Part shown: positions 1 to 2,237 of the stretch, piece by piece
How positions within the stretch are numbered: the first letter of the stretch is position 1
Layout: each line of letters opens with the position of its first letter
Assembly: GCA_011364985.1 (NCBI GenBank)
Contig: RDOC01000010.1
Coordinates: forward strand, 1 to 22,163
DNA length: 22,163 nucleotides
Origin: Candidatus Thorarchaeota archaeon
GTDB taxonomy: Archaea; Asgardarchaeota; Thorarchaeia; Thorarchaeales; Thorarchaeaceae
Reading direction: 5' to 3'
Position numbers and translations under genes: made by a program
The notes under the pieces: model-generated
What the model was told of the DNA's origin: nothing
Seen by the model: the letters and a program-made list of their open reading frames with translations, nothing else
Database searches by the model: none

Positions 1-1208
1 CTTTGCCGAGGCGGTCTGCTGGTCCAGTTCCTTTGGAAACTCGTACACGGCCGGCTTGAGGTCTTTGCCATGTTCGGCCAACCAGAGCATTGCGTTGAGT
101 TGGCTTGCGAAGCTGAGGTCCATTACCTCTCCAGCTATGCGGCAGCGAATGCAGCATATACACTGGGGTGGCCTTCGGCAGCAACCAGATTTACGAGCCG
201 GCCTTCTCCAAGAAGATAGAGCTTTCTTCCATCTTTCATCGTGTACTCATCCAACGCATGACGAACTCGTTTCTTGTCGGTACTGAGTTCAATCAAATCC
301 GGCTCGTTTATCTCAACATTGTAGTGGCCTGCATTTCCGAACATTACACCATTCTTCATCATTTTGAAGTGCTCACCAGTGATGACATCCTTCATTCCTG
401 TTGCTGTGAGAAATACATCACCCAAAGGTGCTGCTTCGTTCATTGGCATGACCTGAAATCCATCCATTCTTGCCTGCAGGGCACGTACTGGATCAACTTC
501 GGTGACAATCACATTTGCACCTAGACCTCTACCTCGTTCAGCCATACCTCTTCCACAGTAACCATAGCCACCAATGACGACAGTCTTTCCAGCAATCAGA
601 ATGGCTGAAGCTCTCATTACACCATCGAAGACACTCTGTCCAGTTCCATAGACATTATCAAACAGATGTTTCGTATCGGCATCATTCACAGCCATGATTG
701 GATACTTCAAGGCACCATCATCCGCCATTGCACGGACGCGGATCACACCAGTGGTGGTTTCTTCAGATCCACCGTACAGGTTTGGTATCAACTCTAAGTG
801 TTTGCTGTGAAGCGTGAAAATCAGGTCCGCACCGTCGTCCAGTGTCAAAGTGGGTTCAGTTTTGAGTGTCTGTTCGATGCACCAATAGTACTCGTCCTTG
901 TTCAAATTATGCCAAGCATATATTGGCACATCATTGGCAGCAAGCCCCGCCGCTACCTCGTCATTTGTAGATAGAGGATTACATCCAGACCATGCTACGT
1001 CCGCCCCAGCGGCCCTGAGGGTTTCCACCAAGACGGCTGTTTCCTTAGTAACATGGAGACACCCAGCAATTCTCATACTCCTCAAGGGTTGACTCTCGGA
1101 GTATTTCTTTCTTAGATGTATCAGTACTGGCATGTGCTTTTCCGCATACTCAATCAGCATCCTGCCTTCTTCTGCAAGTCCAATATCCTTCACTTTATGA
1201 TCTGTCAT
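1..1208 (-). CDS. ahcY: S-adenosylhomocysteine hydrolase (adenosylhomocysteinase), split gene: exon 1 1208..161, exon 2 128..<1 (continues beyond the window)
   Basis: Hallmark motifs: GCLHVTKET, SGCNPLST, DDGADL, EETTTG, KHLFDNVYGTGQS, GYGYCGRG, EGRLVNL..AEGHPS. Likely start is ATG at 1208 (MTDHKVKDIGLAEEG), not 1301. The ORF track stops at 135, but the conserved continuation EVMDLSFASQLNAMLWLAEHGKDLKPAVYEFPKELDQQTASAK is encoded in another frame at 128..1. Confidence 0.96.
129..160 (-). other. Putative 32-nt bulge-helix-bulge (BHB/BHL)-type mRNA intron in ahcY
   Basis: Minus-strand sequence TATATGCTGCATTCGCTGCCGCATAGCTGGAG. Removing it gives CCC AGT G|AG GTA ATG = P-S-E-V-M. Junction fold: outer helix ACC/GGT, central 4-bp helix CCAG/CTGG, 3-nt bulges UG^U and AG^A, intron stem TATGC/GCATA. 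Confidence 0.8.
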
Positions 1209-1295
1209 TATTGTTCTTGGACTACTCAGAACCGTCAAACTTATGAATATTACATCACAATTCAGAATGAAAGGCACCAGATTGAAGATGAGAGT

Positions 1296-2237
1296 ATGCA
1301 ATCAATTACAGAAACTCAGAGAGAACTACTGCGACTACTTGTGAAGAACTCGCGATGGGGACCTTTGGTCCTGGGGAACTTGATGGGGAAGAGTCGTAAC
1401 TGGGTATCACGCTCAATTCGCCAACTCGTGGAGAAAGGATGTATCCGTGCGTATAGCACAGTCATTGACCTTGCTCAGGTTTATGGAGTTGGTAGCACAG
1501 TTCTCTTCTTGAGGACCAATCCCCGAGAGAAGAATGTGAGTGACCGCTTGCTTCAGATGCCCGAATTGATATCTCTTGATGGCATATCTGGTGAGCATTC
1601 ACTAGTGGGGCACTTCAGAAAGATAGGTCAGAAATCCTTCGAAAACCTTCTTGATCGAGTTGATGATATCGTTACCATAGCTCTTCAGCCAAAATACAAG
1701 CTAATCCAAATACTTACAACCTACAAGAGCCATGGCTTCAAAATCGACACAGAAGCACCTCATGATACACCTCTGTCTGCAAAGGACTTGGAGCTACTAA
1801 GCGTGCTATCGAAGTACTCACCAAGTGCTGATAGCCCCTTCCCGCTCTCACAGGCTGAGATTGGAGAGAGGATGCAACCATCTCTGAGCCAACCAGCCGT
1901 ATCAAAGGCTATCACTCGATTGGAATTGCATAGAGCTATTGTGGGCTACTCCATTGACACTGACCTCTCCTTTATTGGTCTTCCAATCAAGTTCTTTCTC
2001 CAAGTGAAAGCTAAACCAGGAACAGCTGCCATCACGGCAAGGAAAATGGTGGAACTTGACGAAATCTGGGATTTGCATCGAACAAGTGAAGACTACAGCC
2101 TTTTTGCTACCGTCCGCACTGAAAGCATTAACAGCTACAACAGCTTCCTGAGAAAGCTCTTTGCCAACGAAGACATAATTGATACTCAGTCAACAGTTTC
2201 ATTTGAAGAGTGGTTTGTTCCACCAAGAACGAAGTAG
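1296..2237 (+). CDS. Lrp/AsnC-family transcriptional regulator with two tandem wHTH + RAM/AsnC units
   Basis: Two repeats of the Lrp pattern: ITETQRELLRLLVKNSR...RSIRQLVEKGCIRAYSTVID and LSAKDLELLSVL...VSKAITRLELHRAIVGYSIDTD. Each is followed by a RAM-like domain (e.g. EIWDLHRTSEDYSLFATVRTES). Start set at ATG 1296 because the upstream ORF extension overlaps ahcY. Confidence 0.88.
   Translation: MQSITETQRELLRLLVKNSRWGPLVLGNLMGKSRNWVSRSIRQLVEKGCIRAYSTVIDLAQVYGVGSTVLFLRTNPREKNVSDRLLQMPELISLDGISGEHSLVGHFRKIGQKSFENLLDRVDDIVTIALQPKYKLIQILTTYKSHGFKIDTEAPHDTPLSAKDLELLSVLSKYSPSADSPFPLSQAEIGERMQPSLSQPAVSKAITRLELHRAIVGYSIDTDLSFIGLPIKFFLQVKAKPGTAAITARKMVELDEIWDLHRTSEDYSLFATVRTESINSYNSFLRKLFANEDIIDTQSTVSFEEWFVPPRTK

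What the first reader, a model, noticed from the sequence alone, without database searches (positions are those of the whole stretch)
121..172. Candidate bulge-helix-bulge mRNA intron interrupting SAH hydrolase (ahcY)
Seen in sequence: the minus strand reads GGC CAC CCC AGT G[TATATGCTGCATTCGCTGCCGCATAGCTGGAG]AG GTA ATG GAC CTC AGC TTC. The 32-nt insert (160..129) shifts the frame and carries an in-frame TAG (137..135). Removing it restores the conserved GHPSEVMDLSF motif and 42 further stop-free AhcY-like codons to the window edge. The junctions fold into outer helix ACC(169-167)/GGU(127-125), central 4-bp helix CCAG(166-163)/CUGG(134-131), 3-nt bulges UGU(162-160) and AGA(130-128), and intron stem UAUGC/GCAUA after one A.G mismatch (a slightly relaxed BHB/BHL), with inner stem GCA-UUCGC-UGC. 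Established: the archaeal splicing endonuclease EndA cuts after the second base of each bulge and RtcB ligates. Applying that rule here gives UG^U and AG^A, exactly the boundaries required independently by the protein frame. The well-documented archaeal mRNA intron is in cbf5; I know of none in ahcY. Inference: this is a tRNA-type spliced intron in a core methyl-cycle mRNA of a probable Asgard archaeon, invisible to normal gene callers.
Basis: partly seen in the sequence, partly recalled or inferred. Interest (0 to 1): 0.93.

Follow-up and report, generated by a model that had tools for sequence, protein, structure and literature searches.

The report
tRNA-type intron inside Asgard ahcY
The only S-adenosylhomocysteine hydrolase gene of this Thorarchaeota (Asgard) archaeon is broken by a 32-base insert with the shape that the tRNA-splicing enzyme cuts, and related genomes keep an insert at the same spot, so the mRNA almost certainly has to be spliced, which papers I could search document inside only one other archaeal protein gene (cbf5).

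Summary
It is not yet proven at the RNA level.

- **The insert.** Bases 160..129 (minus strand) interrupt ahcY after the first base of the Glu codon in GHPS|EVMD. They fold as a near-canonical bulge-helix-bulge (BHB). The standard cut rule removes exactly the 32 nt that restore the frame.
- **Conservation.** In a 400-genome survey of the phylum, 19 genomes from four GTDB families carry an insert of 20-191 nt at this same junction. Interiors differ but the geometry is kept: 91% of helix cells pair, against 20-47% in slid registers. One exon synonymous site covaries with its intron partner.
- **Selection.** Exon 2 stays open to the normal C-terminus, with dN/dS about 0.05.
- **Copy number.** No intron-bearing genome has a second ahcY.
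- **Machinery.** The genome encodes two EndA paralogues and RtcB.
- **DNA check.** A second assembler's contig bridges the insert.
- **RNA.** No RNA run held the locus.
- **Other cases.** Further BHB introns sit at five other ahcY positions in other Asgard families. I also re-derived a 32-nt intron in this genome's porA.

This scan has reported ahcY and other Asgard mRNA BHB introns before on other DNA. In print I found only the cbf5 coding-sequence intron and a Haloferax 5' UTR intron.

The parts
161..1208 (-). ahcY exon 1 (ATG 1208-1206 to the first base, G161, of the Glu codon in GHPS|EVMD)
   Evidence: TIGR00936 match at 159-1196, model positions 2-348, 527 bits, over the 497.6 cut-off. 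tblastn against an intact same-genus AhcY covers aa 1-350 at 89.7% identity.
129..160 (-). 32-nt BHB intron (phase 1); carries the in-frame TAG at 137-135
   Evidence: Sequence, fold, same-site inserts in 18 other genomes. The sequence is unique in this genome.
1..128 (-). ahcY exon 2, cut by the contig start (AG of the Glu codon, then VMDLSF...TASAK)
   Evidence: Open frame to the window edge. tblastn covers aa 351-393 at 81% identity. dN 0.05-0.25 against saturated dS versus other intron-bearing genes. A loose end of a Logan contig continues the coding sequence beyond base 1.
163..169 (-). 5' (exon) strands of outer helix h (ACC, 169-167) and central helix H (CCAG, 166-163)
   Evidence: Paired in 17-18 of 18 distinct sequences for h, and 15-18 of 18 for H.
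160..162 (-). 5' bulge UGU; predicted cut between G161 and U160
   Evidence: A 3-nt bulge sits at this place in all 19 genomes.
136..159 (-). Intron hairpin h': A159.G135 mismatch, UAUGC/GCAUA, U.C mismatch, GCA/UGC, loop UUCGC
   Evidence: The helix next to the bulge is kept with at least seven different sequences across genomes.
131..134 (-). 3' (intron) strand of central helix H (CUGG)
   Evidence: The G132 position covaries with the third base of the exon Pro codon: C-G in 11 and U-A in 6 of 18 distinct sequences.
125..130 (-). 3' bulge AGA (130-128; predicted cut between G129 and A128) and 3' strand of outer helix h (GGU, 127-125)

Best explanation
Bases 160..129 are a bulge-helix-bulge intron in the ahcY pre-mRNA of a Thorarchaeota (Asgard) archaeon.

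Proposed mechanism:
1. The transcript folds so that exon bases ACC-CCAG pair with the intron's CUGG and the downstream exon's GGU. This presents two 3-nt bulges, UGU and AGA, four base pairs apart.
2. The heteromeric splicing endonuclease EndA cuts after the second base of each bulge.
3. RtcB joins the exons, and probably circularises the 32-nt intron. This recreates the Glu codon G|AG and the frame GHPSEVMD.
4. Only spliced mRNA can give full-length S-adenosylhomocysteine hydrolase. Unspliced mRNA stops nine codons into the insert (eight extra residues) and lacks the C-terminal ~70 residues.

What is shown: the geometry, its conservation and covariation, selection on exon 2, and the presence of the enzymes. 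What is inferred: the cutting and joining themselves.
For: 1. **Cut rule.** The BHB cut rule applied to the fold gives exactly the excision that the protein alignment demands independently.
2. **Same junction elsewhere.** HMM and tblastn splits found an insert at the same junction in 19 genomes of four GTDB families, with lengths of 20, 21, 22, 31, 32, 34, 59 and 191 nt. All have a 3-nt bulge, a 4-position helix and a 3-nt bulge, with h 3/3 in 18 of 19 and H 4/4 in 15 of 19.
3. **Covariation.** Counted in registers anchored on the splice sites:
   - 197 of 216 cells pair (91%), against 20-47% with partners slid by 1-3 bases.
   - 0 of 2000 shuffles reach the observed count.
   - H pair 2 is C-G in 11 sequences and U-A in 6. 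This is a synonymous exon change (Pro CCC to CCU) compensated in the intron.
   - The first h' pair occurs as U-A, G-C, C-G and A-U.
4. **Constraint on the exon.** All 19 split genes use Ser AGY and 18 use Pro CCY, as the helix needs. Among 32 uninterrupted genes, 19 use AGY and 16 use CCY. Relatives are not independent.
5. **Selection on exon 2.** Exon 2 is open to the normal C-terminus (...AEGT or similar) in 17 of the 19; the other two (this window and G346) are cut by a contig end. Among 11 Thor-family genes the median dN/dS is 0.05 (9 unsaturated pairs of 55), with median dN 0.13 and median dS about 2.
6. **No second copy.** There is no second ahcY in G000 or in any other intron-bearing genome, including ones that are 92-100% complete.
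7. **Enzymes.** G000 encodes an EndA whose best solved relative is 3p1z_B (E 1.7e-46); 3P1Z is, from my recollection, the Aeropyrum pernix (alpha-beta)2 enzyme, with chain B the catalytic subunit. G000 also encodes a second, diverged EndA paralogue without the His of the catalytic triad by my reading, and RtcB at 594 bits. Asgard EndAs are reported to be of the broad-specificity (alpha-beta)2 type with the L1 loop (PMC5829648).
8. **Real DNA.** The insert is real DNA: a 4703-nt Logan contig at depth 20 bridges 79-1300 with no difference.
9. **Same genome.** porA in this genome carries a 32-nt insert with the same geometry.
Against: - No RNA evidence: no RNA run held the locus.
- The fold energy is not distinguishable from shuffles (z -0.9 and -1.9).
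- The minimum-energy fold pairs U162 with G135 and so draws the 5' bulge one base off. The canonical register needs an A.G mismatch at the start of h'.
- Three relatives (G011, G350, G353) have a G.A mismatch in the central helix, and one (G342) a G.A mismatch at H pair 2.
- G000 is only 74% complete and the gene runs off the contig. A second intact copy in this particular genome is therefore not strictly excluded.
Confidence: 0.9

Rival explanations
1. The insert has inactivated the gene: ahcY is a pseudogene, or is made as a truncated protein, and the BHB-like fold is incidental.
For: The unspliced frame ends at TAG 137-135. Fold energy is not significant.
Against: - The same site is occupied in 19 genomes of four families, with compensated helices.
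- Exon 2, in the shifted frame, is under strong purifying selection and stays open to the normal stop.
- No other ahcY copy exists in any of these genomes.
Confidence: 0.03
2. The insert is skipped by the ribosome (programmed translational bypass or frameshifting) rather than removed from the RNA.
For: A stop codon and a stable hairpin lie within a short gap, as in phage T4 gene 60 (my recollection of that system).
Against: - There are no matching take-off and landing codons: AGU before the gap, GGA before GAG-GUA-AUG.
- Gap lengths of 20 to 191 nt in relatives do not suit one bypass mechanism.
- What is conserved and covaries is precisely the BHB, including pairs between exon and intron that a bypass signal does not need.
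Confidence: 0.03
3. The insert is a DNA-level scar or small mobile insertion tied to the recombination hot spot at this codon. It is tolerated because it happens to be spliceable, or the split gene is rescued in some other way.
For: Extra copies of the ahcY 3' part begin within about 8 nt of this site in G015, G020 and G366. By HMM coordinates 342-349 they begin there in several other genomes too.
Against: - The insert has no terminal repeats or target duplication beyond one shared G.
- It is unique in the genome.
- Its ends are defined by RNA pairing that covaries.
- This rival concerns the insert's origin. It does not replace splicing as the way the gene is expressed.
Confidence: 0.03
4. Assembly or sequencing artefact.
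For: The contig ends inside exon 2, and Logan contigs fragment at bases 1-108.
Against: A second assembler's contig covers both junctions at depth about 20 with no variant. Eighteen other MAGs from different studies have an insert at the same site.
Confidence: 0.01

Closest known systems
BHB intron in the cbf5 (pseudouridine synthase) pre-mRNA of Crenarchaeota (Watanabe 2002; Yoshinari 2006; Yokobori 2009, PMC2738675)
   Same: A short BHB-bounded intron inside a protein-coding sequence. It is removed, or presumed removed, by a heteromeric splicing endonuclease plus ligase. Its distribution is lineage-patchy, with inferred losses.
   Different: - The host gene is a core methyl-cycle enzyme, not an RNA-modification enzyme.
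- The phylum is Asgard rather than Thermoproteota.
- The same junction is occupied across four families, by introns of 20-191 nt.
- ahcY of other Asgard lineages carries BHB introns at five further positions.
- Splicing of cbf5 was shown experimentally; here it is inferred.
Archaeal tRNA and rRNA BHB introns, including the intron-rich tRNA genes of Asgard archaea (PMC11291895; bioRxiv 10.64898/2026.10.13.758758)
   Same: The same motif (3-nt bulge, 4-bp helix, 3-nt bulge), the same cut rule, similar sizes of about 20-35 nt, and the same enzymes.
   Different: The substrate is an mRNA, so correct splicing is read out as a reading frame. [quoted passage not shown]
BHB intron in the 5' UTR of Haloferax volcanii HVO_1309 (PMC7714728)
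   Same: An EndA substrate in an mRNA, confirmed there by circRNA-seq and in vitro cleavage.
   Different: That intron lies in a 5' UTR and does not interrupt the coding sequence. Here, splicing is needed to make the protein at all.
IRE1/RtcB splicing of HAC1 and XBP1 mRNA in eukaryotes (as summarised in PMC13149111)
   Same: Spliceosome-independent cutting of an mRNA at small stem-loops, followed by RtcB-type ligation, with a resulting frame change.
   Different: A different endonuclease and motif. The eukaryotic event is a regulated stress switch; no regulation is shown here.

Membership tests
Archaeal bulge-helix-bulge (splicing-endonuclease) intron | [quoted passage not shown] | tested here: met
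   UGU(162-160) and AGA(130-128) flank CCAG/CUGG. The same layout is found in all 19 same-site introns.
Archaeal bulge-helix-bulge (splicing-endonuclease) intron | Flanking helices h (exon-exon) and h' (intron-intron) next to the bulges | tested here: met
   h is ACC/GGU, 3 bp. h' is 5 bp after one A.G mismatch, so slightly relaxed. Relatives G036, G042, G149, G328 and G021 have h' abutting the bulge with no mismatch.
Archaeal bulge-helix-bulge (splicing-endonuclease) intron | Cuts after the second base of each bulge yield a functional joined product | tested here: met
   In silico only. UG|U and AG|A remove 32 nt and restore GHPSEVMD. The joined peptide aligns gap-free to intact AhcY.
Archaeal bulge-helix-bulge (splicing-endonuclease) intron | Structure supported by covariation across homologues | tested here: met
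   91% of cells are paired, against 20-47% in slid registers; 0 of 2000 shuffles reach this; double-sided changes occur in H pair 2 and in h'. The sequences are related, so the shuffle count is not a probability.
Archaeal bulge-helix-bulge (splicing-endonuclease) intron | Host encodes the splicing endonuclease and an RtcB-type ligase | tested here: met
   Two PF01974 loci (105.6 and 70.7 bits) and one PF01139 locus (594 bits) in G000. The best solved relative of the first EndA paralogue is 3p1z_B; the source organism and subunit role of that chain rest on my recollection.
Archaeal bulge-helix-bulge (splicing-endonuclease) intron | Excision seen in RNA (spliced junction, circular intron) or in vitro cleavage by EndA | not testable with these tools
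   No RNA run held the stretch. The two metatranscriptome runs from the same study laid nothing on the junction.
cbf5 pre-mRNA intron lineage of Crenarchaeota | Located in the cbf5 gene of Desulfurococcales or Sulfolobales | tested here: not met
   The host gene is ahcY (TIGR00936) and the organism is Thorarchaeota. It works the same way but is not a member of that lineage.
Adenosylhomocysteinase (AhcY, TIGR00936) | Full-length match to the family model | tested here: met
   Exon 1 alone scores 527 bits over the 497.6 cut-off (model 2-348). Exon 2 continues at model 347-389, up to the contig edge.
Self-splicing group I or group II intron | Ribozyme core of a known family | tested here: not met
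   32 nt is far below ribozyme size. There are no Rfam matches anywhere in the window.
Programmed translational bypass (T4 gene 60 type) | Matching take-off and landing codons flanking the gap | tested here: not met
   AGU precedes the gap, and GGA precedes the resumed GAG-GUA-AUG. The definition of the family is from my own knowledge.

The most novel reading that the evidence does not exclude
The intron marks a recombination hot spot rather than a random site. Extra copies of the ahcY 3' part lie 0.5-20 kb downstream of the gene in many Asgard genomes. In G015, G020 and G366 they begin within about 8 nt of this intron's position, and in others at HMM positions 342-349. In family f9, copies begin about 20 nt from that family's own intron at position ~300. 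One reading is that mobile DNA repeatedly replaces the gene's 3' end at this conserved sequence. The BHB intron would then either have arrived with a replacement 3' end, or persist because it breaks the DNA target while leaving the mRNA repairable, giving immunity to integration much as introns immunise homing sites.
Probability: 0.1. Interest if true: 0.85.

Novelty: new member of a known kind. Interest (0 to 1): 0.78.

Why it matters
Papers I could search state that a BHB intron inside an archaeal coding sequence is known only for cbf5 (PMC7714728; PMC2738675). Here a core methyl-cycle enzyme in the closest prokaryotic relatives of eukaryotes depends on tRNA-type splicing.

- The intron site is held across four families.
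- The same gene carries such introns at five further positions in other Asgard lineages.

This has three consequences.

- **Annotation.** Standard gene callers will report these genes as truncated or frameshifted, so metabolic reconstructions and completeness estimates for Asgard MAGs are biased.
- **Prevalence.** Enzyme-catalysed mRNA splicing may be routine in Asgard archaea. That bears on how split protein genes were tolerated before the spliceosome.
- **Experiments.** The site offers a compact, testable substrate: about 60 nt of RNA plus two EndA subunits and RtcB.

Tried and rejected
- **RNA evidence.** No RNA holder was listed for window 1-1300. Two metatranscriptome runs from the same study as the DNA holder laid one unrelated 37-nt piece and nothing on the junction.
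- **Near-identical intronless protein or transcript.** The joined 67-aa peptide finds nothing above 88% identity among 5.8 billion clusters. There is therefore neither a spliced-transcript product nor an intronless sister strain on record.
- **De novo genome-wide scan of G000.** I looked for a BHB plus ORF-joining. The first version gave 7517 hits, dominated by neighbouring same-strand genes. A stricter version gave 265 hits, against 247-294 in five slid-register controls. There is no enrichment, so this design cannot count mRNA introns without homology information.
- **Fold energy z-scores.** Not significant, so I did not use them as support.
- **Rfam and ARAGORN on the window.** Nothing found.
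- **Intron as a genomic repeat.** There is a single copy.
- **Intron in family f31 near model position 151.** The canonical BHB solution (30 nt) gives the wrong frame. The frame-correct 28-nt excision has no clean BHB. This is left unresolved.
- **Upstream flanks of the extra 3' copies in G257.** They show no homology to the intron and no clear 3' half of a BHB. Alternative 3' exons are therefore not supported.
- **PMC3064391.** This paper could not be read because it is not held.

Full report
**1. The observation**

The window is the first 22,163 bases of contig C1 of a 1.70-Mb, 22-contig MAG that is 74% complete. On the minus strand an adenosylhomocysteinase gene starts at ATG 1208-1206.

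- Its frame runs through GGC CAC CCC AGT and on to a TAG at 137-135.
- A second frame, starting VMDLSFASQLN..., is open from base 126 to the window edge.
- Removing 160..129 (32 nt) joins G161 to A128-G127. This recreates a Glu codon and the motif GHPSEVMDLSF, which uninterrupted relatives encode without a break.
- A 67-residue peptide written across the junction aligns over 100% of its length to 418-421-aa Thorarchaeota AhcY proteins, at 87-88% identity.

ViennaRNA recovers the outer helix ACC/GGU, the central helix, the 3' bulge AGA and the intron hairpin. It adds a U162-G135 pair that shifts the drawn 5' bulge by one base. The fold energies are not significant against shuffles, so I gave them no weight. 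Because G161 = G129, the excision could equally be written as 161..130.

**2. What it is**

*Organism.* The nearest ahcY loci in GTDB genomes are MAGs titled Candidatus Thorarchaeota or Promethearchaeota. The DNA holders are marine-sediment metagenomes.

*Is the insert real DNA?* Yes. A 4703-nt contig from a different assembler (Logan) covers 79-1300 at depth about 20 with no difference. It probably derives from the same reads as the MAG.

*Comparative test.* I searched 400 genomes of the phylum with the AhcY model and fetched every locus where the match broke near model position 347-351.

- Nineteen genomes carry an insert at exactly the same junction, after the first base of the Glu codon.
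- They span 13 genomes in nine genera of the Thor family f1, and families f13 (2), f21 (1, a closed and 100%-complete genome) and f31 (3).
- Lengths are 20, 21, 22, 31, 32, 34, 59 and 191 nt.
- Interiors are unrelated between families, for example CCCA-GAAAA-UGGG in f31 and a 7-bp CCACAUG/CAUGUGG stem closing a 191-nt intron in f21.
- Every one has a 3-nt bulge, a four-position helix and a 3-nt bulge in the same register relative to the frame-restoring cuts.

*Covariation.* I counted 12 pairs, anchored on the splice sites, over 18 distinct sequences.

- 197 of 216 cells are standard pairs (91%).
- With partners slid by 1-3 bases, only 20-47% pair.
- None of 2000 column shuffles reaches the observed count. 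Relatedness inflates that last figure.

The most telling pair is H2. The third base of the exon's Pro codon is C opposite an intron G in 11 sequences, and U opposite an intron A in 6. A synonymous exon change is thus compensated in the intron.

The exon half of the motif is also constrained. All 19 split genes use Ser AGY and 18 use Pro CCY. Among 32 intact genes, 19 use AGY and 16 use CCY. The split set was defined by HMM breaks and not by these codons, but relatives are not independent.

*Is the gene alive?*

- Exon 2, in the shifted frame, is open to the usual C-terminus in 17 of the 19 genes; in this window and in G346 a contig end cuts it.
- Among 11 Thor-family genes the median dN/dS is about 0.05 (nine unsaturated pairs of 55), with median dN 0.13 and dS about 2.
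- No intron-bearing genome has another ahcY, including genomes that are 92-100% complete.

This rules out decay after an inactivating insertion.

*Machinery.* G000 has two EndA-domain genes and one RtcB.

- The 188-aa EndA paralogue matches 3p1z_B at E 1.7e-46. From my recollection, 3P1Z is the Aeropyrum pernix (alpha-beta)2 endonuclease and chain B its catalytic subunit.
- By my reading it keeps the Tyr, His and Lys positions.
- The 213-aa paralogue is more diverged and lacks the His. That fits a structural subunit.

*Distribution.* On a quick maximum-likelihood tree of exon 1, intron-bearing genes are scattered among intact ones within the Thor family. At least six changes are forced by well-supported branches. 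For example, G011 (intron) is sister to G006 (no intron) at 99% support. This points to repeated loss, or to transfer. A gene tree cannot tell which.

**3. Mechanism**

The best explanation is ordinary archaeal endonuclease splicing applied to an mRNA. EndA cuts at UG|U and AG|A, and RtcB joins the exons. Unspliced message would give a protein that ends eight residues into the insert and lacks the C-terminal ~70 residues. I put this at 0.9. The missing 0.1 is mostly the absence of any RNA observation.

Rivals each fail on the covarying exon-intron pairs, on selection on exon 2, or on the independent assemblies:
- pseudogene;
- ribosomal bypass;
- DNA-level scar;
- assembly artefact.

**4. Comparison with what is known**

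The closest published case is the cbf5 pre-mRNA intron of Crenarchaeota (PMC2738675). A 2020 study states that this is the only BHB intron reported in an archaeal mRNA besides its own 5' UTR case, HVO_1309 (PMC7714728).

Recent work on Asgard introns covers tRNA genes only (PMC11291895; bioRxiv 10.64898/2026.10.13.758758). My searches for ahcY or Asgard protein-coding BHB introns found nothing. Subscription journals are mostly not held.

The finding therefore works like the cbf5 intron but is not a member of that lineage. It is a new host gene in a new phylum.

This scan's earlier notes already describe ahcY BHB introns in at least five other Asgard genomes, among them a 32-nt one in another Thorarchaeota genome, and about a hundred notes on Asgard protein-gene BHB introns. 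One of those notes reports RNA-derived contigs lacking such introns in a Jordarchaeum. I did not check it.

**5. Beyond the finding**

ahcY of other Asgard families is interrupted at further positions. In each of the following, a 4/4 central helix, 3-nt bulges and the correct joined protein are recovered:

| Junction | Family | Intron length |
|---|---|---|
| TTTG\|IVR | f21 | 56 nt |
| TKWE\|FDN | f7, f21 | 23-29 nt |
| KWDFD\|NVYG | f31 | 32 nt |
| HFDIE\|IP | f9 | 32 nt |

A fifth site, AAA|EGH in f31 (32 nt), I derived by hand from the sequences; one search's scan did not recover it, because the outer helix there needs a G.A mismatch. It lies 15 nt upstream of the GHPS|E site and so leaves a 15-nt exon.

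In G000 itself, porA (C11, about 138,556-138,587) carries a 32-nt insert with CCUC/GAGG, bulges AGA and UAA, and UACA/UGUA. Its removal restores YPITPQ|TIIVED.

Finally, extra copies of the ahcY 3' part lie downstream of the gene in many genomes.
- In G015, G020 and G366 they start at the Pro codon of GH|PSEVMD, 8 nt from the intron site.
- By HMM coordinates, several others start at 342-349.
- In f9, copies start about 20 nt from that family's intron.
- I saw no integrase in the 1-2 kb between gene and copy.

Whether this hot spot and the intron are linked remains open. It is my novel case, at low probability.

**6. Verdict**

This is a new member of a known kind, with high interest for archaeal RNA biology and for the annotation of Asgard genomes.

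Noticed in passing
L053:1090-1190 (G149, f21); L054:780-860 (G148, f7); L055:630-700 (G153, f21); L052:800-930 and 300-380 (G330, f31); L056:360-480 and L057:350-470 (G257 and G215, f9): ahcY of other Asgard families is split at five further positions: TTTG|IVR, TKWE|FDN, KWDFD|NVYG, HFDIE|IP and AAA|EGH. Inserts are 23-56 nt. Four of the sites gave a 4/4 central helix, 3-nt bulges and the correct joined protein's scan; AAA|EGH I derived by hand, and its outer helix needs a G.A mismatch. A sixth split in f31, near model position 151, has no clean frame-correct BHB.
   Followed up: partly
L049:260-340, L050:240-340, L052:250-380 (family f31, genus g83): Two BHB introns of 32 nt and 20-22 nt lie only 15 nt apart. 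They leave a 15-nt exon that encodes part of E-G-H-P-S. The ahcY gene of these genomes is in at least five pieces.
   Followed up: partly
G000:C11, about 138,556-138,587 (+), locus L143: porA of the same genome carries a 32-nt insert with CCUC/GAGG, bulges AGA and UAA, and intron stem UACA/UGUA. Its removal joins ...AYPITPQ to TIIVEDFQKF. The outer exon helix is weak (1 of 3 pairs).
   Followed up: yes
L042:2834-3049 (G366); L034:3873-4115 (G015); L035:2964-3170 (G020); G352:C3:38343-38555; G257:C22 (L145, L146, six copies within 20 kb); others listed: Extra copies of the ahcY 3' part lie on the same strand, 0.5-20 kb downstream of the gene. Some are intact ORFs and some carry stops. In three Thor genomes homology starts at the Pro codon of GH|PSEVMD, 8 nt from the intron site. 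Many others start at model positions 342-349. One cargo gene and no integrase lies between gene and copy in the three cases I looked at. This looks like a hot spot for replacement of the gene's 3' end.
   Followed up: partly
window 1-108: Logan contigs of the DNA holders break up here into four short pieces of differing depth (7.8-25), while one contig covers 79-1300. The MAG contig also starts here. This may reflect several versions or copies of the ahcY 3' end in the sample.
   Followed up: no
Exon-1 tree of 51 ahcY genes: Within the Thor family, intron-bearing and intact genes are interleaved, with sister pairs that differ in intron state at 98-99% support. This points to repeated loss, or to transfer, of the intron.
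   Followed up: partly
L033, L043, L045 (G011, G350, G353): A subgroup of the 32-nt introns has AUGG instead of CUGG. This gives a G.A mismatch in the central helix next to the 5' bulge, while the third bulge base can pair into the intron stem. A strictly canonical reading of that alternative fold would cut one base off and break the frame. These are good test substrates for the tolerance of the Asgard enzyme.
   Followed up: no
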